Part shown: positions 11,297 through 36,018 of the stretch, in pieces
How the letters are laid out: every line of letters starts with the position of its first letter
Numbering within the stretch: the first letter of the stretch is position 1
Assembly (NCBI GenBank): GCA_964427375.1
Contig: CAYRUF010000004.1
Span: forward strand, 8,690 to 72,689
Source of the DNA: an uncultured Desulfatibacillum sp.
GTDB lineage: Bacteria > Desulfobacterota > Desulfobacteria > Desulfobacterales > SpSt-501
Direction: 5' to 3'
DNA length: 64,000 nucleotides
Notes under the pieces: model-generated
The model's database searches: none
What the model saw: the letters and a program-made list of their open reading frames with translations, nothing else
What the model was told of the DNA's origin: nothing
Program-made: the position numbers and the translations under genes

Positions 11297-11324
11297 ATAT
11301 TAGATGATGCGAAAAAAATGTCAA
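11297..11324 (-). promoter_or_regulatory. Sigma70-type promoter candidate for rplU-rpmA-obg
   Basis: On the minus strand: TTGACA (11319-11324), a 16-nt spacer, then TAATAT (11297-11302), about 40 nt upstream of the rplU ATG. Confidence 0.55.
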
Positions 11325-11344
11325 CAAAAAAATCAGGAGGAATC

Positions 11345-12148
11345 GTGAACGCGTCCGTTCCCCGGCCCGTCACCCTGTTTGACCGCAGCAGAACCACCTC
11401 CCTGGAGATGGAGCTTTTGGGAGAGGAGCCGCTGTCTATCCGGGTGGAAGGCAAGCCCTACGCGGTCGTCATGCGCACACCCGGGGAGGAAATCGCCCAT
11501 GTCGCCGGTTTCTGCCTCGGCGAGGGTATTATCGACTCGCCGGCCGACTATACGTCCATCGCCACCTGCGATGCGGATAGCACCAATGTGGTCACCGTGA
11601 CCCTGAATCCGACCCGCCGGAAATCCATTGCTGGGATTCTGGACCGCCGCAGCTACGTCAGCCAGACCAGCTGCGGGCTGTGCGGAAAGGAGCTGGTTCA
11701 GGACCTCTATCAGGAGATCCGGCCCATGCCGGCCGGCACCGCCGTTTCGATCTCAACGGCGCTCAGGAGGCTGGATTCCCTGTCCGCCCACCAGCCGCTC
11801 AGAAGCCGCACGCACGCTTCGCACGCCGCTTCTCTCTGGGATGCGCCCGGCAATCTGGTGGCGGTGGCCGAGGACATCGGCCGCCACAACGCCCTGGACA
11901 AAGCCATCGGCAAGGCGTTCCTCGACGGCCGGCTTTCGCAGACCGCCTTCCTGATTATGTCTTCTCGAATCAGCTACGAACTCGTGCAGAAAGCCGCTCG
12001 CGCACGGATTCCGGTCATTCTCTCCGTGTCCCGGCCGACCGGATTGGCGGTGGAGCTAGCCGCACGCCTTAAAATGGGAATCGCCTGTCTGGCTGCCGGA
12101 GAGGGGGTATACATCTTCTGCGGCCACGAACGGTTCCAGCTGGCATAG
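11345..12148 (+). CDS. fdhD: Formate dehydrogenase accessory sulfurtransferase FdhD
   Basis: SCGLCG and GRHNALDK motifs. GTG at 11345 follows AGGAGG. The alternative ATG at 11318 sits inside the rplU promoter. Confidence 0.88.
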   Translation: MNASVPRPVTLFDRSRTTSLEMELLGEEPLSIRVEGKPYAVVMRTPGEEIAHVAGFCLGEGIIDSPADYTSIATCDADSTNVVTVTLNPTRRKSIAGILDRRSYVSQTSCGLCGKELVQDLYQEIRPMPAGTAVSISTALRRLDSLSAHQPLRSRTHASHAASLWDAPGNLVAVAEDIGRHNALDKAIGKAFLDGRLSQTAFLIMSSRISYELVQKAARARIPVILSVSRPTGLAVELAARLKMGIACLAAGEGVYIFCGHERFQLA

Positions 12149-12161
12149 CTTCCGACGAGGC

Positions 12162-13373
12162 CTAGCGCGTCTGATCCCGCCGGTCTCCGGCCGGCGCTTC
12201 GGCGCACCCGCAGGTGGCGCCGCAGCACGGAGCTGCTGAGGACAGAGGGCTTACTGACGCAGTCGCCGCGAGTCTCGCCGAGGTCGGAGGTTCGGCCGGA
12301 TTCTTTTTTTCAAGCAGCGATTTCAGTTTCAGCGCGGTCGGCTGGATCGAAATGGCGACGATCAGCAGAGCCGCCCCCCACTGCAGCCATCCCGGAACGA
12401 TTGCCGCAGCCTGGCCGGCTGCGGCCCTGGCTGAAATCCCCATGGCCGCGTAGGCCTGGTCCACCGCCCAGCCCATCAGAACCGAACAGACCGCGATGGC
12501 TGATAGATAGATGACGGTCGCCCGCTTGCCGAGGGTTCCCATCAGCACCGTCATCGAGGCCATATTCGTCGCCGGACCGGCGAGCAGAAACACCAGGGCC
12601 ACCCCCGGGCTTACTCCTTTCAGAATGAGGGCGGCGGCGATGGGGGTGGAGGCCGTAGCGCAGATGTAAAGCGGAATCCCGACCGCCAGCATCAGCAGCA
12701 TGGCCGGTAGGCCCGACCCCAGGTGACGGCTGAAAAAATCGTCGGGGATGACGACCGTAATCAGGCCGGCCAGCAGCAGCCCGAAGAAAAACCATGGCGC
12801 GATGTCCCCCCACAGATCGGTGACGGCAAACCGGATCCCGGCCCGCAGCTTCTCGTAAAAGCGGTGATGATTCCGGTGAACCTGGGGATCGCAGTTGACG
12901 CCGTCGCAGCATCCGTCCACCGGGCAGGTCAGGTCCGGGGCAGCCGGTGCCGCGGCCCTGCGGTAGCCGAAGAGGTTTTCGGCGATCCCTGCCACGAAAG
13001 CCGTAAAAAAGGCCGCGACGGGCCGCGCCACAGTCATGACCGGATCCAGCATGGCGTAGGTCACGGCGATCGAATCCACGCCGGATTCGGGAGTGGAGAT
13101 CAAAAATGCGGTGGTGGCGCCTTTGGTGGCGCCCTGTTTGCGCAGCGACACGGCTGCGGGCAGCACCCCGCACGATCAGAGCGGGATCGGTACTCCGATC
13201 AGGGCCGCCTTGAACACCGACGAATAGCGGCCGCTGCCCAGATGCCGGGCGATGGAATTCGGATTGAGCAACACCCGGAAAAGCCCGCTCGCCAGCAGGC
13301 CGAATAGTATGTACACGGCCGCATCCAGAAGCAGGTGCCTGGATTCGTTCAGGATTTCAACGATGAAGGCCAT
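12162..13373 (-). CDS. ArsP-like / SO_0444-like permease (PF03773-type) read through an in-frame TGA at 13176-13178; candidate selenoprotein, otherwise a nonsense pseudogene
   Basis: ORFs 13176..13373 and 12162..13166 are in the same frame and separated only by the TGA. The joined sequence reads GVPIPL-[TGA]-SCGVLPAAVSL, which matches the family PxCSC(G/S) motif. Multi-TM protein with Cys/His-rich loops (CPVDGCCDGVNCDPQVHRNHH, PCCGATCGC). Confidence 0.7.
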
Positions 13374-13400
13374 GGCGGCGTCCTTTTAGAGAAATCGTGA

Positions 13401-13802
13401 CTATTCACGGATATGCCGCAGCCCGATATCGAGCAGCAGCACCACATGTTTGTCGTCCAGCGCATAGTAGACCACCTGGCCATCCCGCCGGCTGCGAACC
13501 AGGGATAAATCCTTGAGCCGACGCAGCTGGTGCGAAACCGCCGACTCGCTGATGCCGGTCAGCGCCGCCAGGTCGCAGACGCACATCTCGTCCCGGCGCA
13601 GGGCCATTAGGATCTTCAGTCGGCTCGGGTCTCCCAGAACGCGATAGACCAAGGCCAGAGCTGCCAGTTCGTTATCCGGCGATGCCTCTCGGAGAGCGCT
13701 TTTCACCCGATCGGCATGAACGATCCTCGGCCGGTCGTCGGGGTCCGGATATCCGATCAGTTCCGTCCGCGGCATAACGCCTTTCCGTGAATATCTGAAC
13801 AT
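13401..13802 (-). CDS. arsR: ArsR/SmtB-family metalloregulator
   Basis: Winged-HTH region LKILMALRRDEMCVCDLAALTGISESAVSHQLRRLKDLSLV, with the CVC motif in the position of the ArsR As(III) site. 27 nt upstream of the permease. Confidence 0.85.
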   Translation of the reverse strand: MFRYSRKGVMPRTELIGYPDPDDRPRIVHADRVKSALREASPDNELAALALVYRVLGDPSRLKILMALRRDEMCVCDLAALTGISESAVSHQLRRLKDLSLVRSRRDGQVVYYALDDKHVVLLLDIGLRHIRE

Positions 13803-13849
13803 ACTTTCATATATAAGACCGGCTGCGAAGGTGTCAACGTCACCCGGCC

Positions 13850-13997: not shown

Positions 13998-14690
13998 ATG
14001 GCCAAAGAACGCATTCTGGTCGTCGACGACGAGGAAGATATCCTGGAATTGATCCGCTTTCATCTGTCGCGCGAAGGCTACCAGCTGGCGCTGGCGGCAA
14101 CCGGCGAGGAGGCCTTGAAGAAGGCCGGCCGGGAGGCATTCGACCTGGTCGTGCTGGACTTGATGCTGCCCGGCCTGGATGGCTTGGAAGTGGCCAAAGC
14201 TTTGAAAGCGGAAGCCAGGACCCGGACCCTGCCGATCATCATGCTCACGGCCAAGGGCGAGGATGCCGACATCGTCACCGGCCTGGAAATCGGGGCCGAC
14301 GACTACATCACCAAACCGTTCAGCCCAAGGGTGCTCACCGCGCGCGTCAAGGCCGTGCTGCGGCGGCGGTCCCGCGCAGGGGTGGACGACGCCCGGGTGA
14401 TATTGATCCACGAGCTCGAGATCCATCCTGGGCGCCGCACCGTGATGGCCGGCGGCAAGGCCTTGGATCTGACGTTCACGGAGTTCCAGCTGCTTTGCGT
14501 GCTCGCGCGCCGGCCCGGCTGGGTGTTCACGCGTTCGCAGATCGTCGATGCCGTCCGCGGCAGCGACTACCCGGTTACCGATCGCAGCGTCGATGTCCAG
14601 GTGGTGGGCCTGCGAAAAAAATTGGGCGCGTACGGGCATTACATCGAGACCGTGCGCGGGGTCGGTTACCGCTTCAGGGAAGCGGCATGA
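13998..14690 (+). CDS. phoB: OmpR/PhoB-family response regulator (PhoB-like by context)
   Basis: Receiver domain (ILVVDDEEDILE...DLVVLDLMLPGLDG) plus a winged-helix C-terminus (LTFTEFQLL...VDVQVVGLRKKL...IETVRGVGYRF). Sits next to the pst genes and a PhoR-like kinase. Confidence 0.8.
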   Translation: MAKERILVVDDEEDILELIRFHLSREGYQLALAATGEEALKKAGREAFDLVVLDLMLPGLDGLEVAKALKAEARTRTLPIIMLTAKGEDADIVTGLEIGADDYITKPFSPRVLTARVKAVLRRRSRAGVDDARVILIHELEIHPGRRTVMAGGKALDLTFTEFQLLCVLARRPGWVFTRSQIVDAVRGSDYPVTDRSVDVQVVGLRKKLGAYGHYIETVRGVGYRFREAA

Positions 14691-16474
14691 AGAAGCGCAA
14701 AAAATTCATCTGGCGCCTGTTCTTCTCCTATATTTTCATTGCGATCGGTGCGCTGCTGGTGGCCGGGTGGTATTTCGTGCATTCGCTGGACTCGTTTCTC
14801 CATGATCTGGTCGTCGTCGAGCTTTCCGAAAGGGCCCGTCTGCTTCAAAACCAGATCCTTTCCTATCTGGAACCGCTGAATCCGGGGGCCGTAGACGCCA
14901 TCTGCAAGCAGTCCGGCAAGGCCTCGGAAACTCGCTTCACCGTGATTCTGGCCTCCGGCGTCGTCATCGGCGATACGTGGGAGACCCCGCAAAATATGGA
15001 CAACCATGCCGGCCGGCCGGAGGTTGCCGGGGCCCTGGCAAACGGCCAGGCCACGTCGCAACGCTTCAGCAACACCCTCCAGCAGAACATCATCTATGTA
15101 GCGATTGCCGTTCGGCAGGAGGGCCGGTCGATCGGCGTGGTGCGGGCATCCATTCCGCTGGCGCGCATGGAAACGCAGCTGGCACGAATCCGTGCCGAAT
15201 TCTGGGGCATCGGCGGGCTCCTGGCTCTCCTGGCGCTGGGGGTGACCTTCGCCATTTCCCGGCAATACGGCCGGAAAATGCAGGAGTTCAAGCAAAGTGC
15301 CGCGCGCCTGGCCGAGGGCGAACTCGCCCACCGCCTGGCGATACCCGATTCCGACGAGCTGGCCGGCCTGGCCGAATCCTTGAACCGGATGGCGGCTCAG
15401 CTGGAAAGCCGCATGCAGACCGTCGTCAGCCAGCGCAACCAGATCGAAGCCGTTCTGTCGAGCATGCTCGAGGGAGTGATTGCGGTCAGCCGTGACGAGC
15501 GCATCCTCAGCATCAACCCGGCCGCGGCGCGGTGGTTCGACCTCGATCCGGAAAAAGTCCGCGACCGCAACCTCCCCGAGGCGATCCGCAACCTCGCCAT
15601 TCAGAAGTTCGTCACGCGTTCCCTGAAAAGCCGCGCCCCGGTGGAAGACGATGTAGCGGTTTACCGCAACGGCGAACGCATCCTGAACATCAAGAGCGCG
15701 CCGCTGCTCGACGTGGGACCCGAGCCGATCGGCATCCTGATCGTCTTCAACGACGTCACCCAGCTGCGCCGCCTGGAAGACATGCGCCGGGAGTTCGTCG
15801 CCAACGTCTCCCATGAAATCAGAACTCCCCTGACCGCGATCAAGGGGTTCGTGGAAACACTTCACCACAACATCGTTGAAACGCCGGAGGAGGTCGAACG
15901 GTTTCTGGCGATCATCGCCAAGCACGTGGATCGGCTCAACACCATCATCGAAGACCTACTGATGCTCTCGCGCATTGAAAACGAGGGCGAACGCGGCGCC
16001 ATCAGGCGTGAAAGGACCCGTTTGCGGGATCTTTTCCAGAACGCCGTGCAGATCTGCCGGACCCAAGCCGACGAAAAGCGCATTCGGATCGAACTCGCGG
16101 GGGACGAGGGGCTTGAGGCGATGGTCGACCCGGTCCTGCTGGAGCAAGCCGTCGTCAACCTGCTGGACAATGCCGTCAAGTACAGTGACCCCGAAAAGAC
16201 TGTCCGGGTCCGGGCCCAGGCCGTCGATTATGAAATCCAGATCCAGGTGCAGGACCACGGAATCGGCATCGAGGAAAAGCACCTGCCGCGGCTGTTCGAG
16301 CGCTTTTACCGGGTCGACAAGGCCCGCAGCCGGGCGCTTGGCGGCACGGGGCTGGGACTGGCCATCGTCAAGCACATCGCCCAAGCCCATGGCGGCCATG
16401 TCACGGTGGAAAGCCGGCTGGGCGAAGGCAGCCGCTTCACCATCCACCTGCCGCGAGACCCGGAGCACGCCTGA
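14687..16474 (+). CDS. phoR: Sensor histidine kinase, PhoR-like (2 TM, HAMP, PAS, HisKA, HATPase_c)
   Basis: ATG at 14687 overlaps the phoB stop (ATGA). H-box FVANVSHEIRTPLTAI, N-box LLDNAVKYS, G-boxes DHGIGI and GGTGLGLAIVKH. The 13970 start in the ORF track is an artefact. Confidence 0.8.
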   Translation: MKKRKKFIWRLFFSYIFIAIGALLVAGWYFVHSLDSFLHDLVVVELSERARLLQNQILSYLEPLNPGAVDAICKQSGKASETRFTVILASGVVIGDTWETPQNMDNHAGRPEVAGALANGQATSQRFSNTLQQNIIYVAIAVRQEGRSIGVVRASIPLARMETQLARIRAEFWGIGGLLALLALGVTFAISRQYGRKMQEFKQSAARLAEGELAHRLAIPDSDELAGLAESLNRMAAQLESRMQTVVSQRNQIEAVLSSMLEGVIAVSRDERILSINPAAARWFDLDPEKVRDRNLPEAIRNLAIQKFVTRSLKSRAPVEDDVAVYRNGERILNIKSAPLLDVGPEPIGILIVFNDVTQLRRLEDMRREFVANVSHEIRTPLTAIKGFVETLHHNIVETPEEVERFLAIIAKHVDRLNTIIEDLLMLSRIENEGERGAIRRERTRLRDLFQNAVQICRTQADEKRIRIELAGDEGLEAMVDPVLLEQAVVNLLDNAVKYSDPEKTVRVRAQAVDYEIQIQVQDHGIGIEEKHLPRLFERFYRVDKARSRALGGTGLGLAIVKHIAQAHGGHVTVESRLGEGSRFTIHLPRDPEHA

Positions 16475-19479: not shown

Positions 19480-20802
19480 TTACCAGCGGCGCTCGAATTT
19501 TTTCCGCAGGATGATGGCACCGGCGTTCATCACCACCAAAAACGCCAGCAGCACCATGATGGCCGCCGAGGTCCGCTCCACAAACGCGCGTTCCGGGCTG
19601 TCCGACCACAGGTAGATCTGGACCGGCAGCACCGTAGACGGGTCAGTGAAGCCTTTGGGGATATCCACGATGAACGCCACCATGCCGATCATCAAAAGCG
19701 GCGCGCTCTCCCCCAGCGCCCGCGCCATGCCGATGATCGTGCCGGTCAGCATGCCCGGCAGGGCCAGCGGCAGCACGTGGTGCACCACCATCTGCATTTT
19801 GGAGGCGCCGACGCCCAGAGCGGCTTCGCGGATGGACGGCGGCACGGATTTCAGGGCCGAGCGGCTGGCGATGATGATGGTGGGAAGCGTCATGAGTGTC
19901 AGCACCAGCCCGCCGACGAGCGGCGCCGAGCGCGGCAGTCCGAAGAAATTCAGGAAAACCGCGAGCCCCAGGAGCCCGAACACGATGGAGGGCACCGCGG
20001 CGAGGTTGTTGATGTTGACTTCGATCAGATCGGTCCAGCGGTTCTTCCGCGCGAATTCCTCCAGGTAGACGGCGGCGGCCACCCCGATCGGAAACGACAA
20101 GACCAGGGTGATCACCAGGGTGAAAAACGAACCGGAAACCGCACCCCAGATGCCGGCCAGTTCCGGTTCGCGCGAATCGCCGGCGCTGAAAAAGGTGGAG
20201 TTGAACCGGCGTTCCAGGCGTCCCTCGGATTCCAGCTGCTCGATCCAGGCGAGCTGCTTGTCCGAGACGCGCCGCTCAGATTCGGGCCGATCGCGCCGGA
20301 AATGGCCCTTGATGAGCATGTCGATATCGTCGTCGGCCGGCAGCCAGACCTCGGCCTCCCGGCCCGACAGATCGGGATCCTTCAGCACCATGTCCCGCAA
20401 CAGGTAGACGCTGCCGCTGCTCATCAACCCGGTCAGCTGCCGCTTGTCCTGTCGTCCGTCCACCTGCGGGAACTTCTTGAAAAGTGCTTCGCGAACCAGG
20501 GCGGCATAGTCCGCATTCACCAGAGCGTCCTGCTGGAGCACCGCCGGGTCGAAAAAGATGGGCAGCCGGATGGACGTCTGCCAGAAGGCCGAATAGCCCT
20601 TGGCGACAATGCTGACGAAAAGCAGCGCCAGGAACATCAGGCTCATCACGATCGCGGCCAGTCCGTAAAAGCGAAACCGCTTTTCAGCGCGGTAGCGGCG
20701 CTTCAGGCTGCGGTTGACGATGTCGATGGTCCGTCGGGACTCCGGAGCGGCGGCTGGGTCGATCGGGCTATTCATACTGTTCTCGATATTTCCGGACGAC
20801 AT
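19480..20802 (-). CDS. pstA: Phosphate ABC transporter permease PstA (long form)
   Basis: GIWGAVSGSFFTLVITLVLSFPIGVAAAVYLEEFA and a C-terminal PstA-type core. 440 aa. Confidence 0.88.
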   Translation of the reverse strand: MSSGNIENSMNSPIDPAAAPESRRTIDIVNRSLKRRYRAEKRFRFYGLAAIVMSLMFLALLFVSIVAKGYSAFWQTSIRLPIFFDPAVLQQDALVNADYAALVREALFKKFPQVDGRQDKRQLTGLMSSGSVYLLRDMVLKDPDLSGREAEVWLPADDDIDMLIKGHFRRDRPESERRVSDKQLAWIEQLESEGRLERRFNSTFFSAGDSREPELAGIWGAVSGSFFTLVITLVLSFPIGVAAAVYLEEFARKNRWTDLIEVNINNLAAVPSIVFGLLGLAVFLNFFGLPRSAPLVGGLVLTLMTLPTIIIASRSALKSVPPSIREAALGVGASKMQMVVHHVLPLALPGMLTGTIIGMARALGESAPLLMIGMVAFIVDIPKGFTDPSTVLPVQIYLWSDSPERAFVERTSAAIMVLLAFLVVMNAGAIILRKKFERRW

Positions 20803-22156
20803 ATAATGCGATGACGTTGAGGCATAGGGTAACGATGAACAGAATCAGCCCGAGCGCGAAGGCGGCCAGCGTCTTGGGGCTGTCGAATTCCTGGTCTCCG
20901 ACCAGCAAGGTCACGATTTGAACGGTCACCGTGGTCACCGCTTTGAGCGGATTGACGGTCAGGTTGGCCGAAAGCCCCGCGGCCATGACCACGATCATGG
21001 TCTCGCCGATGGCTCGCGACACGGCCAGCAGCACCCCGCCGATAATCCCCGGAATGGCGGCCGGCACGATCACTTGGCGGATGGTCTCCGACCGGGTGGC
21101 TCCGAGGCTGTAGGCGCCGTCGCGCAGCGACTGCGGCACGGCGTTGATGAAATCGTCCGACAGCGAGGATACGAAAGGGATGATCATGATGCCCATGACC
21201 AGTCCGGCGGCCAGCGCGCTCTCGGAGGCGACATCCAGGCCGAGCCGGCTGCCCCAGTCGCGGATGACCGGCGCCACCGTCAGGGCCGCGAAAAACCCGT
21301 AGACCACCGTCGGGATTCCCGCCAGCACCTCGATCAGCGGTTTGGCGACGGCCCGCAGGCGTTTGCCGGCGTATTCGGAGAGATAGATGGCGGACATCAA
21401 GCCGATCGGAACCGCCACCGCCATGGCGATGGCCGAAATCAGGATCGTGCCCAGAAAAACCGGTACGGCCCCGAAGGCACCCGAGGATCCGACCTGGTCC
21501 GCGCGGATGGCCATCTGAGGGCTCCAGTCCAGACCGAACAGGAATTGGGTGATCGGGATCACGTTGAAGAATCGGATGGCCTCGTAGAGAACGGAAAGGA
21601 TAATGCCGATGGTCGTGAAAATCGCAATCGTCGAGCAGGCGACCAGGATGACCGTGAGAATGCCCTCCACCTGGTTCCGCGCGCGCAGGCCGGCGTCGAT
21701 CCGGCGTCGAACGAGCATGGCTGCGGCGGCTACCACGGCGATCGAAACGACGGCCAGCGCCTGGCGGCTGATGCCTCTCAGGCGGCGGTAATGGTCGGCG
21801 GCGGCCAGCATGGCCGGGTCGGCGGCCTGGGAAACGAAGCTTCCGCTTTCAATATTGCGGATATCGTTGATCATCAGGTTCAGCCGGTCCGCCGGAAGCC
21901 CCCGGATGGATTCGGGCAGGTCTCTCACCACCAGATGAGTGATGATCTGGGTCTCAAACGCCAGCCAGCATCCGAAAAGAATCAAGGCCGGTATGGCGCA
22001 CCAGAGGGCCGTCAGGGCCCCGTGGTAGGTCGGCCGGGAGTGCAGCTTGACCGCCTCTCCGGCCCGTCCGGAGAGAGCGAAGGCCTTGCGCCTGCCGATG
22101 TAATAGGCGGCCGTGGAAAGCCCTAACAGCGTGATCAACAGATATGCAGGAGGCAT
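20768..22156 (-). CDS. pstC: Phosphate ABC transporter permease PstC (long form)
   Basis: FGAVPVFLGTILISAIAMAVAVPIGLMSAIYLSEYA and EAAYSLGATRSETIRQV-like motifs. 462 aa. Confidence 0.88.
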   Translation of the reverse strand: MPPAYLLITLLGLSTAAYYIGRRKAFALSGRAGEAVKLHSRPTYHGALTALWCAIPALILFGCWLAFETQIITHLVVRDLPESIRGLPADRLNLMINDIRNIESGSFVSQAADPAMLAAADHYRRLRGISRQALAVVSIAVVAAAAMLVRRRIDAGLRARNQVEGILTVILVACSTIAIFTTIGIILSVLYEAIRFFNVIPITQFLFGLDWSPQMAIRADQVGSSGAFGAVPVFLGTILISAIAMAVAVPIGLMSAIYLSEYAGKRLRAVAKPLIEVLAGIPTVVYGFFAALTVAPVIRDWGSRLGLDVASESALAAGLVMGIMIIPFVSSLSDDFINAVPQSLRDGAYSLGATRSETIRQVIVPAAIPGIIGGVLLAVSRAIGETMIVVMAAGLSANLTVNPLKAVTTVTVQIVTLLVGDQEFDSPKTLAAFALGLILFIVTLCLNVIALYVVRKYREQYE

Positions 22157-33932: not shown

Positions 33933-34154
33933 ATGAAGACGACGACACTGAGCATCCGATTGGATAAAGACTTGGACAAGCTCTTGTCAAAGGCCGCACG
34001 CCAATCCGGAAAAAACCGCAGCGAGGTGGCCCGAGAAGCGCTTCGACGGCAGTTGCGCATCAGCCAGTTCGAAACCCTGCGCCGCAGGATCATGCCGTTT
34101 GCCGAAGCTCGCGGTTACCTGACCGACGAGGACGTGTTCCGGGACGTTTCATGA
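33933..34154 (+). CDS. Ribbon-helix-helix (CopG-like) antitoxin
   Basis: MKTTTLSIRLDKDLDKLLSKAARQSGKNRSEVAREALRRQL. 4-nt overlap with the PIN gene. Confidence 0.75.
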   Translation: MKTTTLSIRLDKDLDKLLSKAARQSGKNRSEVAREALRRQLRISQFETLRRRIMPFAEARGYLTDEDVFRDVS

Positions 34155-34558
34155 GGGTCATGCTGGACACGAACGTCCTGGCCAGTGCGGTTGCCACGCG
34201 TGGGCTATGTGCCGATGTGCTGCGCACCGTTCTGGCTGAACATGAACTGGTTATCTGCCCGCAGATCATTTCCGAGCTTCAACGGGTTCTGCAAGATAAG
34301 TTCGCTTTGCCCCGGCCGCTGGTCAATGATTTTATTCGATTAGTACGAGAGGACTCCGTTCTGTGCGAACCCGGAGACCTGCCAGCGGTCAAACTCAAGG
34401 ACAAAGATGAACTTGGCATTCTGTCGGCCGCCGTCGGCGGTCAAGCAAATGTGATGGTCACCGGCGATAAGGAGTTGCAGATGGTTGAAACGGCTGCAGA
34501 AATCAAAATCATGTCTCCACGACAATTCTGGCGGGAACTTACGGAAGGGGCGGAGTGA
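34151..34558 (+). CDS. PIN-domain toxin (VapC-like, TIGR00305-like)
   Basis: MRVMLDTNVLASAV... with C-terminal VTGDKEL. 135 aa. Confidence 0.75.
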   Translation: MRVMLDTNVLASAVATRGLCADVLRTVLAEHELVICPQIISELQRVLQDKFALPRPLVNDFIRLVREDSVLCEPGDLPAVKLKDKDELGILSAAVGGQANVMVTGDKELQMVETAAEIKIMSPRQFWRELTEGAE

Positions 34559-34561
34559 GTC

Positions 34562-34800
34562 ATGAAAAAGATGGAAAGAAACGACGAGGCTCCCGTTCTA
34601 GAGATCTTTTCGGATTTAATCTGACCCTGGTGCTACTTCATTACCGTAAAGAACCTTCACGAATTGGAAACATTGGCTGCGGCCGGCGAGTCCGTGGGAT
34701 TGAAGAGAGTTGATCTGGAAGCGGTTCTCCAAAGCAAGGCCTTCAAAGCCGCCGTTGATCAGGACTGGCTGCGGTCCCATCATCTGGGCATCACCGTTTG
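34562..34800 (+). pseudogene. Decayed DsbA/FrnE-like thiol-disulfide oxidoreductase with TGA at the first Cys of the CxxC motif (ancestral U-P-W-C selenoprotein?)
   Basis: MKKMERNDEAPVLEIFSDLI-[TGA 34622-34624]-PWCYF, then a jump to the family C-terminal segment LETLAAAGESVGLKRVDLEAVLQSKAFKAAVDQDWLRSHHLGITV. About 100 aa of the middle is missing, and the 3' end runs out of frame into the next gene. Confidence 0.55.
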
Positions 34801-34845
34801 GAAAAAAACCTTGAAACCTTGCAAATTGAAAGTTATAGTTGCAAT

Positions 34846-36018
34846 ATGCAAGTATTCGTCCAACGCAAACTCCACGCCCGGATCAGGAGGCTGCTGCAGG
34901 ATTTCCCGGCGGTTGCCATCTTGGGCCCGCGGCAATGCGGCAAGACTACGCTGGCGCAGGCGATCGCCAAAGAGACCGGGCCGAGCATCTATGTGGATCT
35001 CGAACGACCGTCGGATGCCCGCAAGCTCAGAGATCCCGAACTCTACTTCCGGCAGCATCAGGATCGCTTGGTCTGCCTCGATGAGATTCAACGGCAGCCC
35101 GATCTCTTCCCGCTGCTCCGGGGAGTAATCGACGAGCACCGGCGCAACGGACGTTTCCTGATTCTCGGCTCGGCATCCCGGGACCTGATCCGCCAAAGCT
35201 CGGAAACCCTCGCCGGCCGGATCGCCTACCTGGAATTGACGCCGTTCCTGTTTTCAGAGGCGGCCGGGCATTCCCCGTCGGATTCTTCGGTGGAGCAGAC
35301 GCTTTGGCTGCGCGGCGGGTTCCCGGGCAGTTATCTCGGCCGCGATACCGCCGCCAGCCTGGAATGGCGTGAGAATTTCATCCGAACTTTTCTCGAGCGG
35401 GACATCCCCCAGCTGGGATTCAATATTCCGGCGCAAACCCTGCGCCGGCTCTGGCGGATGCTGGCCCACTCGCATGGGCAGCAGCTGAACAGCTCACGTC
35501 TAGGCGAGGCGATCGGGGTAAGTCACACCACCATTCGCTCCTACCTGGATCTCTTATCCCAGACCTTCATGATCCGCCTGCTTCAGCCCCAGCATGCCAA
35601 TCTCAAGAAGCGTCTGGTCAAGTCCCCGAAAGTCTACGTTCGAGACAGCGGGATCCTGCACGCCCTGCTTGAGATTGAAAACCGGGATGAGCTCTGGGGG
35701 CACCCGGTTTATGGCGTCTCATGGGAGGGATTTGTGGCCGAGAACATCATCTCCGAACTCGACCGCTGGGCGCCGTCCTTTTTCAGGACCGCAGCCGGGG
35801 CTGAGATCGACCTTATATTGACGAGAGGCAAAAGGCGGATCGCCGTGGAATGCAAAGCGTCCACGGCGCCGGAGGTGGGTAAGGGGTTCTGGGGCGCCCT
35901 GAAAGACCTCGGGATCATGGAAGCCTGGATCATCGCTCCGGTCAAGGAATCCTATCCGATCGAAAAGGGAGTATCCGTGGCGAATCTCGTTGATTTCCTG
36001 GCAAAAATGGAAAGTTAA
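34846..36018 (+). CDS. AAA-type ATPase with DUF4143-like C-terminal domain (COG1373-like)
   Basis: Walker A ILGPRQCGKTTLA and Walker B LVCLDEIQ. 390 aa. Start at MQVFVQRKL. Confidence 0.75.
   Translation: MQVFVQRKLHARIRRLLQDFPAVAILGPRQCGKTTLAQAIAKETGPSIYVDLERPSDARKLRDPELYFRQHQDRLVCLDEIQRQPDLFPLLRGVIDEHRRNGRFLILGSASRDLIRQSSETLAGRIAYLELTPFLFSEAAGHSPSDSSVEQTLWLRGGFPGSYLGRDTAASLEWRENFIRTFLERDIPQLGFNIPAQTLRRLWRMLAHSHGQQLNSSRLGEAIGVSHTTIRSYLDLLSQTFMIRLLQPQHANLKKRLVKSPKVYVRDSGILHALLEIENRDELWGHPVYGVSWEGFVAENIISELDRWAPSFFRTAAGAEIDLILTRGKRRIAVECKASTAPEVGKGFWGALKDLGIMEAWIIAPVKESYPIEKGVSVANLVDFLAKMES

What the first reader, a model, noticed from the sequence alone, without database searches (positions are those of the whole stretch)
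12162..13373. In-frame TGA exactly at the first Cys of the PxCSC motif of an ArsP-like permease: candidate selenocysteine-containing metalloid permease
Seen in sequence. Two same-frame ORFs are separated only by the TGA at 13176-13178. The joined protein reads GVPIPL-[TGA]-SCGVLPAAVSLRKQG.

Established knowledge (from memory). Permeases of this family, including Campylobacter ArsP, carry a P-x-C-S-C motif whose vicinal cysteines are needed for trivalent organoarsenical transport.

Two hairpins lie just 3' of the TGA in the mRNA. The first is UGCGGG-GUGCUG-CCCGCA (13155-13172). The second is CGCAGC-CGUGUC-GCUGCG (13141-13158), about 20 nt downstream with a GU-containing loop, which is a bacterial-SECIS-like geometry.

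The gene is co-oriented with an ArsR that carries the CVC As(III)-type site. A second TGA-for-Cys case (the DsbA-like remnant at 34622) in the same window suggests the organism decodes Sec. The alternative reading is a simple nonsense mutation, making this a pseudogene.
Basis: partly seen in the sequence, partly recalled or inferred. Interest (0 to 1): 0.7.

Follow-up and report, generated by a model that had tools for sequence, protein, structure and literature searches.

The report
Selenocysteine codon in metal efflux pump
The in-frame TGA is almost certainly a genuine selenocysteine codon at the metal-binding site of a copper/zinc-type efflux pump, a family already known to have selenium-containing members, so this is a real but previously described kind of feature.

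Summary
In detail: one 403-codon gene (12162-13373, minus strand) is interrupted only by TGA at 13176-13178, at the first Cys of the conserved C-S-C motif. It is not a pseudogene. The same TGA is present in every close relative examined: 12 distinct DNA loci down to 65% protein identity, and 120 of 120 database N-terminal fragments end at that residue. dN/dS is 0.10-0.19 on both sides of the TGA. More distant homologues and some syntenic orthologues carry TGC or TGT. The strongest synonymous-site constraint in the whole gene lies on the 6-bp hairpin CGCAGC-CGUGUC-GCUGCG, whose stem starts 17 nt after the TGA. This is the likely SECIS. The hairpin alone is not beyond chance, and there is no covariation. 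The protein passes the NCBIfam cutoff for the SO_0444 family Cu/Zn efflux transporter, not ArsP proper. The adjacent regulator is SmtB-like with a complete Zn-type alpha5 site. U-S-C selenoprotein members of this family are already reported (Haft & Gwadz 2022; a 2026 review). Sec machinery could not be checked because none lies in the window. Verdict: a new, currently mis-annotated member of a known selenoprotein family; the metalloid/ArsP reading is not supported.

The parts
12162..13373 (-). Complete gene for a 403-residue SO_0444-family (Pfam ArsP_1 superfamily) metal efflux permease, read through one in-frame TGA; stop TAG at 12162-12164
   Evidence: sequence and frame. Pfam PF03773, E 6e-41. 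NCBIfam NF033936, 413 bits against a cutoff of 300; dN/dS 0.10-0.19 on both sides of the TGA.
13176..13178 (-). In-frame TGA, inferred selenocysteine codon (residue 66), first position of the U-S-C motif (13170-13178)
   Evidence: TGA at this column in 12 distinct orthologous loci. 120 of 120 N-terminal database fragments end at ...P[I/V/S]PL. TGC/TGT in more distant homologues and in syntenic orthologues L055 and L058. C66 is invariant in 42 Cys-form homologues.
13141..13158 (-). Hairpin 2, CGCAGC-CGUGUC-GCUGCG: best SECIS candidate. The stem starts 17 nt after the TGA and the loop 23 nt after it, with G-U in the loop
   Evidence: 6 of 6 pairs kept in 11 of 11 TGA-form sequences, with one A-U to G.U change, and an invariant loop. 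It lies in the gene-wide minimum of synonymous codon entropy. dG is -9.1 kcal/mol. There is no covariation, and a similar hairpin arises by chance at 7% of codons.
13137..13163 (-). Zone of suppressed synonymous change (codons +5 to +13 after the TGA)
   Evidence: the five lowest of 239 six-codon windows all fall here (H 0.21-0.41, gene mean 0.97, next lowest 0.56).
13155..13172 (-). Hairpin 1, UGCGGG-GUGCUG-CCCGCA: alternative fold that overlaps hairpin 2. It starts only 3 nt after the TGA
   Evidence: 5 of 6 pairs kept in 10 of 11 sequences, the innermost pair broken in 7 of 11, and a variable loop. Inference: its 5' arm would lie inside the ribosome when UGA is in the A site, so it should be melted at the moment of decoding.
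12864..12926 (-). Cys/His-rich loop C150-PVDG-CC-DGVN-C-DPQV-H-RN-HH (residues 150-170), probable cytoplasmic metal-binding loop
   Evidence: C150, C155, C156, C161, H166, H169 and H170 are invariant in 42 homologues and conserved in both Sec and Cys forms. The segment is not helical in the model. The metal-binding role is inferred.
12660..12662 (-). Cys238 in GIPLYI-C-ATASTP, the repeat-2 counterpart of Sec66
   Evidence: Internal repeat, residues 17-115 against 190-286, E 5e-14, aligns U66 with C238. C238 is invariant. Both sit just after helix breaks in the AlphaFold model.
12204..12227 (-). C-terminal Cys cluster CCGATCGC (residues 383-390)
   Evidence: Seen in the sequence. It varies among homologues: a single C near the C-terminus in most, CxxxCGC in L055, L058 and some others.
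13401..13802 (-). SmtB-like ArsR-family metalloregulator, co-transcribed upstream of the permease (27-nt gap). The true start is probably ATG 13775
   Evidence: HTH_5; NF033788; best PDB relative is SmtB 1r1t, E 8e-23, with D-x-H-x10-H-x2-E aligned to SmtB D104/H106/H117/E120. Synteny is conserved in all related loci.
13796..13837 (-). Putative promoter (TTGACA 13832-13837, -10 box about 13809-13815) and operator-like palindrome TGAA-N6-TTCA (13796-13809)
   Evidence: TTGACA followed by a palindrome with consensus aTaTGAACAtaTGTTCAtAT recurs upstream of the regulator in L054, L061, L065, L068 and L057. The operator function is inferred from memory of ArsR/SmtB 12-2-12 operators.

Best explanation
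The gene encodes one 403-residue inner-membrane metal efflux permease of the SO_0444 (Cu/Zn efflux) family, in which UGA at codon 66 is decoded as selenocysteine. Inferred decoding: as the ribosome reaches the UGA it unwinds hairpin 1. This frees CCCGCA to form hairpin 2 (13141-13158), whose invariant loop lies 23-28 nt past the UGA and would recruit SelB-GTP-Sec-tRNA(Sec). Inferred function: Sec66 and Cys68 form a vicinal selenol/thiol pair at the N-terminal cap of a broken helix. Cys238 occupies the equivalent position in the second inverted repeat. Together they would make a soft-metal site in the translocation path. The Cys/His-rich loop would feed metal to that site. Expression is controlled with an SmtB-like Zn-type repressor in the same operon.
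For: Shown: in-frame TGA. Family membership above the curated cutoff. The TGA is kept in 12 distinct loci down to 65% identity and in 120 of 120 N-terminal fragments. Every hit at 75% identity or more is a fragment starting just after the site. dN/dS is 0.10-0.19 for both pieces, with dS up to 0.96. Cys occupies this column in all other homologues and is invariant in 42 of them. Syntenic Cys orthologues exist. TGA is the ordinary stop for 14 of 27 genes here, so the recoding is site-specific. The minimum of synonymous variation lies on hairpin 2, and all its pairs are retained. The internal repeat and the model place U66 and C238 at equivalent helix breaks. The regulator is SmtB-like with alpha5 ligands. 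Literature: U-S-C members of the SO_0444 family (bioRxiv 10.1101/2022.07.06.499078, PMC13188914). SO_0444 is needed under Zn/Cu stress (PMC3219624). Desulfobacterales are among the most selenoprotein-rich bacteria (PMC13326102).
Against: No selA, selB, selC or selD lies in the window or in the held loci, so Sec decoding in this genome is inferred, not shown. There is no Rfam hit. No covariation supports either hairpin. A similar hairpin follows 7% of codons by chance. The Cys orthologues L055 and L058 keep almost the same hairpin, so it is not exclusive to TGA forms. Substrate specificity rests on one Shewanella fitness study of a distant Cys-form member. No solved structure exists, and the fold search found nothing significant.
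Confidence: 0.87

Rival explanations
1. Simple nonsense mutation: the gene is a pseudogene.
For: Gene callers and GenBank MAG records split it into a 65-aa hypothetical protein and a ~327-aa fragment. The hairpin is not beyond chance.
Against: The same TGA occurs in at least 12 diverged loci and in more than 115 protein clusters. Both pieces show dN/dS of 0.10-0.19 at dS up to about 0.96. There are no other stops or frameshifts. The operon and its synteny are conserved.
Confidence: 0.02
2. The TGA is a true stop and the transporter is made as two polypeptides: a 65-aa two-helix piece and a C-terminal piece reinitiated downstream. This would be a conserved split gene.
For: GTG/ATG codons follow within 4-8 codons of the TGA in all forms. 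A conserved split would also give purifying selection on both pieces.
Against: The stop falls exactly on an invariant, functionally central Cys, and reinitiation would delete the S-C-G of the motif. The codon is always TGA and never TAA or TAG (12 of 12), as expected for Sec but not for a generic stop. The presumed downstream start differs between loci (VLPAAV, VSLRK, MISTPE). Synonymous constraint sits on a hairpin and not on a Shine-Dalgarno/start region. The family is documented to contain Sec forms.
Confidence: 0.05
3. UGA is read through with a standard amino acid (Cys, Trp or Arg, by near-cognate or suppressor decoding) and not with Sec.
For: Sec machinery was not observed in the window.
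Against: TGA is the commonest ordinary stop in the window, so general suppression would be harmful. A TGA-to-TGC change is a single step and has occurred in nested lineages, so retaining TGA implies an advantage specific to it. The taxon is Sec-rich.
Confidence: 0.05

Closest known systems
Sec-containing members of the SO_0444 family Cu/Zn efflux transporter (NCBIfam NF033936), e.g. WP_014809615.1 of Desulfomonile tiedjei (Haft & Gwadz 2022 preprint; table in PMC13188914)
   Same: Same family model (413 bits), same U-S-C replacement of C-S-C, and the same kind of anaerobic Desulfobacterota host.
   Different: I could not fetch the D. tiedjei sequence, so identity to it and whether this is the same Sec clade are unknown. 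The carriers found here are uncultured Desulfobacterales MAGs, in which the gene is deposited as two ORFs. The preprint calls the Sec form occasional, whereas more than 115 clusters were found here.
Shewanella oneidensis SO_0444 (Deutschbauer et al. 2011, PMC3219624)
   Same: It founded the family. It is a membrane protein with the C-S-C motif, is needed under ZnSO4 and CuCl2 stress, and lies in an operon with a metal-responsive regulator.
   Different: It is a Cys form. Its regulator is a MerR/ZntR type, whereas here it is an ArsR/SmtB type. No transport assay exists for either.
Campylobacter jejuni ArsP, methylarsenite efflux permease (from memory: Chen et al. 2015)
   Same: Same Pfam superfamily (ArsP_1), with a vicinal Cys pair in the equivalent motif.
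   Different: It is a different subfamily and lies in an ars operon. The gene here has no ars neighbours, carries an additional Cys/His-rich loop, and has a Zn-type regulator. Organoarsenical transport is not indicated.
SaoE (NF040736), efflux component of the SAO locus of Clostridioides difficile
   Same: Second-best model hit, and it shares the C-S-C motif.
   Different: The score of 187 bits is far below the cutoff of 325. SaoE has no Sec members and is tied to the nine-gene SAO locus, which is absent here.
Escherichia coli fdhF SECIS (from memory)
   Same: A stem-loop immediately 3' of the UGA, inside the coding sequence, with G-U in the apical loop.
   Different: The loop here begins about 5 nt further from the UGA. 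It is a plain 6-bp stem with no bulged U, and SelB binding is untested.

Membership tests
SO_0444 family Cu/Zn efflux transporter (NCBIfam NF033936) | Whole-protein score above the curated equivalog cutoff | tested here: met
   413.1 bits against a cutoff of 300, covering profile positions 3-348 of 351.
SO_0444 family Cu/Zn efflux transporter (NCBIfam NF033936) | Conserved C-S-C (or U-S-C) tripeptide | tested here: met
   U66-S67-C68. C66, S67 and C68 are invariant in 42 homologues.
SO_0444 family Cu/Zn efflux transporter (NCBIfam NF033936) | Confers Cu/Zn tolerance by efflux | not testable with these tools
   Only indirect support: the SmtB-like Zn-type regulator in the operon and the Cys/His-rich loop.
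Bacterial selenoprotein gene | In-frame UGA aligned with Cys in homologues | tested here: met
Bacterial selenoprotein gene | UGA conserved among orthologues, with purifying selection on both sides | tested here: met
Bacterial selenoprotein gene | SECIS stem-loop immediately downstream of the UGA | tested here: inconclusive
   Hairpin 2 fits the geometry and lies in the gene-wide minimum of synonymous change. Against this, there is no covariation, a 7% chance rate, no Rfam model hit, and the hairpin is retained in the nested Cys orthologues.
Bacterial selenoprotein gene | selA, selB, selC and selD present in the genome | not testable with these tools
   None in the 64-kb window or in the held loci. 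The rest of the genome is not available. The taxon is Sec-rich.
Bacterial selenoprotein gene | Selenium incorporated in the protein | not testable with these tools
   Needs 75Se labelling or mass spectrometry.
ArsP organoarsenical efflux permease | ArsP_1 domain with a vicinal Cys pair | tested here: met
   PF03773, E 6e-41, and the U-S-C motif.
ArsP organoarsenical efflux permease | ars operon context with an As(III)-responsive ArsR | tested here: not met
   The neighbours are an SmtB-like regulator with a Zn-type alpha5 site, FdhD, ribosomal proteins L21 and L27, and Obg. No ars genes occur in the window or in any related locus.
ArsP organoarsenical efflux permease | Transport of methylarsenite | not testable with these tools
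SaoE efflux transporter (NF040736) | Score above the curated cutoff | tested here: not met
   186.9 bits against a cutoff of 325.
SmtB/CzrA-type alpha5 Zn(II) sensor (the neighbouring regulator) | D-x-H-x10-H-x2-E ligand set in helix alpha5 | tested here: met
   The alignment to SmtB 1r1t shows all four ligands identical.

The most novel reading that the evidence does not exclude
The Sec codon may do more than improve a metal ligand. Because full-length pump synthesis needs selenium, metal efflux would be gated by selenium supply. The two mutually exclusive hairpins could act as a ribosome-driven switch that sets read-through efficiency. Alternatively, the selenol may change substrate range towards Hg, Cd, or organometal or metalloid species in this large Desulfobacterales clade. 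Repeated Sec-to-Cys switching would then mark adaptation to local selenium or metal regimes.
Probability: 0.1. Interest if true: 0.6.

Novelty: new member of a known kind. Interest (0 to 1): 0.3.

Why it matters
Transporters with selenocysteine in the substrate path are rare; the 2022 preprint could validate only two such prokaryotic transporter families. This case adds a well-supported example and a large set of relatives. It also shows that the U-S-C form is common in uncultured Desulfobacterales, not an occasional oddity, and that public MAG records routinely split it into a 65-aa hypothetical protein plus a truncated transporter. It gives a concrete SECIS candidate and a natural series of Sec/Cys orthologue pairs. 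These could be used to test what selenium contributes to metal binding or gating. It does not change current understanding of Sec decoding or of this family.

Tried and rejected
- Rfam, both at gathering thresholds on the whole window and at permissive E-values on 12900-13400, found no SECIS or other relevant family.
- ARAGORN found no tRNA-Sec in the window or in 23 related loci.
- Covariation tests of both hairpins were uninformative because the sequences are nearly invariant.
- I expected the nearest Cys orthologues to lack the hairpin. They retain it with one G.U pair, so the control did not discriminate. Their nested tree position suggests a recent Sec-to-Cys reversion.
- Two screens for other in-frame TGA selenoprotein genes in the window found only the DsbA-like remnant.
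- The two P-type ATPases were checked for an N-terminal Sec extension, and none was found.
- The PDB sequence search for the permease found nothing.
- The Foldseek search of the AlphaFold model gave no significant match. The best E-value was 0.11, and the best TM-score, about 0.35-0.39, was to VcINDY.

Full report
OBSERVATION. On the minus strand an ATG at 13373 opens a 65-codon ORF ending ...FKAALIGVPIPL. TGA follows at 13176-13178. The same frame then continues SCGVLPAAVSLRKQG... for 337 codons to TAG at 12162-12164. They share the bases CGCA, so they cannot form together.

WHAT THE PROTEIN IS. With Cys placed at the TGA, the 403-residue protein matches Pfam ArsP_1 (E 6e-41). More specifically, it exceeds the curated equivalog cutoff of NCBIfam NF033936, the SO_0444 family Cu/Zn efflux transporter (413 bits against a cutoff of 300). 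The next model, SaoE, falls far below its cutoff (187 against 325). The family name comes from a Shewanella oneidensis fitness study. In that study SO_0444 mutants failed under ZnSO4 or CuCl2 stress and were complemented (PMC3219624). So the gene belongs to the ArsP superfamily but not to ArsP itself.

IS THE TGA A LESION OR A CODON?
- In a search of 5.8 billion proteins, every hit with at least 75% identity was a 297-334-aa fragment beginning a few residues after the site. Full-length hits of 374-405 aa, all with Cys, began only at 70% identity or less.
- A search with the 65-aa N-terminal piece alone returned 149 hits. All 120 listed end at exactly ...P[I/V/S]PL, 99 of them are exactly 65 aa long, and they reach down to 66% identity.
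- At the DNA level, 12 distinct loci from genomes and metagenomes carry TGA at this codon, with full-length protein identity to the window of 66-91%. They are WIN, L001-3, L051, L053, L054, L060, L061, L065, L066 and L068. The codon is never TAA or TAG.
- More distant homologues carry TGC or TGT.
- The syntenic orthologues L055/P0007 and L058/P0011 also carry TGC. Their gene order is ArsR-type regulator, permease, L21, L27, Obg, ProB.
- Nei-Gojobori dN/dS between TGA-form orthologues is 0.10-0.16 for the 65 codons upstream and 0.12-0.19 for the downstream part. dS reaches 0.96.
- TGA is also the ordinary stop codon of 14 of 27 confident genes in the window, so the genetic code is standard and the recoding must be site-specific.
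Together these results exclude a pseudogene. They match the standard signature of a selenoprotein gene.

THE RNA ELEMENT. The hairpin alone is weak evidence. The 76-nt fold has z = -1.3. A perfect 6-bp stem at SECIS-like distance follows 7% of codons in this window's genes. Rfam finds nothing. The useful evidence is synonymous-site behaviour. Across the 12 TGA-form genes, the five lowest of 239 sliding six-codon windows of synonymous codon entropy all overlap codons +4 to +14 (H 0.21-0.41, gene mean 0.97, next lowest 0.56).
- The constrained stretch is GCA GCC GUG UCG CUG CG, which is hairpin 2 including its loop. All six pairs are kept in 11 of 11 sequences.
- The one A-U to G.U change, in L066, comes with a CGC-to-CGG change that adds an outer C-G pair.
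- Hairpin 1 keeps five pairs in 10 of 11 sequences. Its loop varies, and its innermost pair is broken in 7 of 11.
- There is no true covariation for either hairpin.
- Hairpin 1 starts 3 nt after the UGA, so I infer that it is unwound by the ribosome when UGA is in the A site, which leaves hairpin 2 free to form.
- The hairpin 2 loop begins 23 nt after the UGA and contains G-U. From memory, this lies within the range used for bacterial SECIS models and is about 5 nt further out than in E. coli fdhF.
- One caveat: the Cys orthologues L055 and L058 keep nearly the same sequence, with GCG for GCA giving a G.U pair. On a neighbour-joining tree they nest inside the Sec clade. I read this as a recent Sec-to-Cys reversion with a relic SECIS, but it means the hairpin is not exclusive to TGA forms.

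HOW IT PROBABLY WORKS.
- The protein has an internal repeat: residues 17-115 against 190-286, E 5e-14. The repeat aligns U66 in GVPIPL-U-SC with the invariant C238 in GIPLYI-C-AT.
- An AlphaFold model was built for the Cys orthologue P0007, which has the same numbering (mean pLDDT 76, pTM 0.71). It places position 66 in a break between helix 50-60 and a short helix 67-79. C238 lies in the matching break between helices 221-235 and 239-251.
- An invariant Cys/His-rich loop, C150...C155 C156...C161...H166...H169 H170, could deliver metal to that site.
- No solved structure resembles the family by sequence or by fold.

REGULATION.
- The upstream co-oriented regulator is separated from the permease by a 27-nt gap. 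Its closest solved relative is the Zn sensor SmtB (E 8e-23), and all four alpha5 ligands are identical. It also has the alpha3 C-V-C motif.
- Upstream lies TTGACA-N17-TATATA, followed by a TGAA-N6-TTCA palindrome. The same layout recurs in related loci, with consensus aTaTGAACAtaTGTTCAtAT.
- The palindrome overlaps the first ATG of the ORF, so the real start is probably ATG 13775.
- This points to Zn-type or other soft-metal sensing, not to a dedicated As(III) sensor.

SEC MACHINERY. None is in the window. There is no tRNA and no SelA, SelB or SelD among the large ORFs scanned. None of 23 related loci carries a tRNA-Sec. The DsbA-like TGA at 34622 precedes P-W-C-Y, but only 16 residues match the DSBA profile, below the cutoff (23.7 against 25.6 bits). 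It is a degraded gene next to a toxin-antitoxin pair, so it is weak support. All named carriers of the split gene are Desulfobacterales MAGs, and this order includes some of the most selenoprotein-rich bacteria known (PMC13326102). Sec competence of this organism is therefore likely but not shown.

COMPARISON WITH WHAT IS KNOWN. Haft & Gwadz (bioRxiv 10.1101/2022.07.06.499078) state that the C-S-C motif of the SO_0444 family is occasionally U-S-C. They cite WP_014809615.1 of Desulfomonile tiedjei and its closest homologues, and say the family is in the reference data NCBI uses to detect selenoproteins. A 2026 review lists NF033936 as a UxC selenoprotein known from GenBank annotation (PMC13188914). 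The phenomenon is therefore already described. New here are the breadth of the TGA form in Desulfobacterales (more than 115 clusters), the fact that GenBank MAG records split it (MCU0563812.1 at 65 aa and MCU0603525.1 at 327 aa), the SECIS candidate localised by synonymous constraint, and the evidence for Sec/Cys switching.

VERDICT. This is a real selenocysteine codon (confidence about 0.87) in a new, mis-annotated member of a known selenoprotein transporter family. The Sec reading is right, and the ArsP/metalloid/As(III) framing is not supported. Interest is modest.

Noticed in passing
window 34563-34790 (+), TGA at 34622-34624: DsbA-like remnant, MKKMERNDEAPVLEIFSDLI-TGA-PWCYF..., with TGA at the first Cys of C-P-W-C. 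Only 16 residues match Pfam DSBA (23.7 bits, cutoff 25.6) and the rest is degenerate. It lies between an RHH/PIN toxin-antitoxin pair (33933-34558) and an ATPase gene (34798-36018). It may be a relic of a UxxC DsbA-like selenoprotein.
   Followed up: partly
window 36070-39051 (-) and 42131-45178 (-): Two E1-E2 P-type cation ATPases with HMA_2-like N-termini, a family with reported Sec members. No in-frame TGA extension lies upstream of either.
   Followed up: partly
window 13775-13837 (-): The first ATG of the regulator ORF (13802) overlaps an operator-like palindrome downstream of a near-consensus promoter. The second ATG (13775, preceded by GGAAAGG) gives 124 aa, the length seen in homologues.
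   Followed up: partly
L055 6001-7164, L058 2001-3167: These Cys-form syntenic orthologues (69% identical to the window protein) nest inside the Sec clade on a neighbour-joining tree. They keep the SECIS-like hairpin with one G.U pair, which looks like a recent Sec-to-Cys reversion. L065 and L068 (Sec forms) group near other Cys forms, implying several switches.
   Followed up: partly
L051 3794-4984 and GenBank proteins MCU0563812.1, MCU0603525.1: Public MAG annotations deposit this gene as a 65-aa hypothetical protein plus a ~327-aa SO_0444 family transporter, so the Sec codon is systematically missed in this lineage.
   Followed up: yes
window 11318-12148 (+): An FdhD (formate dehydrogenase sulfurtransferase) gene lies convergent to the permease. 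The same arrangement is seen in L054, L061, L064, L065 and L068. No formate dehydrogenase catalytic subunit was seen nearby.
   Followed up: no
window 13998-16474 (+): A response regulator (13998-14690) and a PAS/HAMP histidine kinase (about 14690-16474) lie divergent from the regulator-permease operon. The same pair flanks the operon in L065, L066 and L068. A pst phosphate-transporter permease pair lies at 19480-22156.
   Followed up: no
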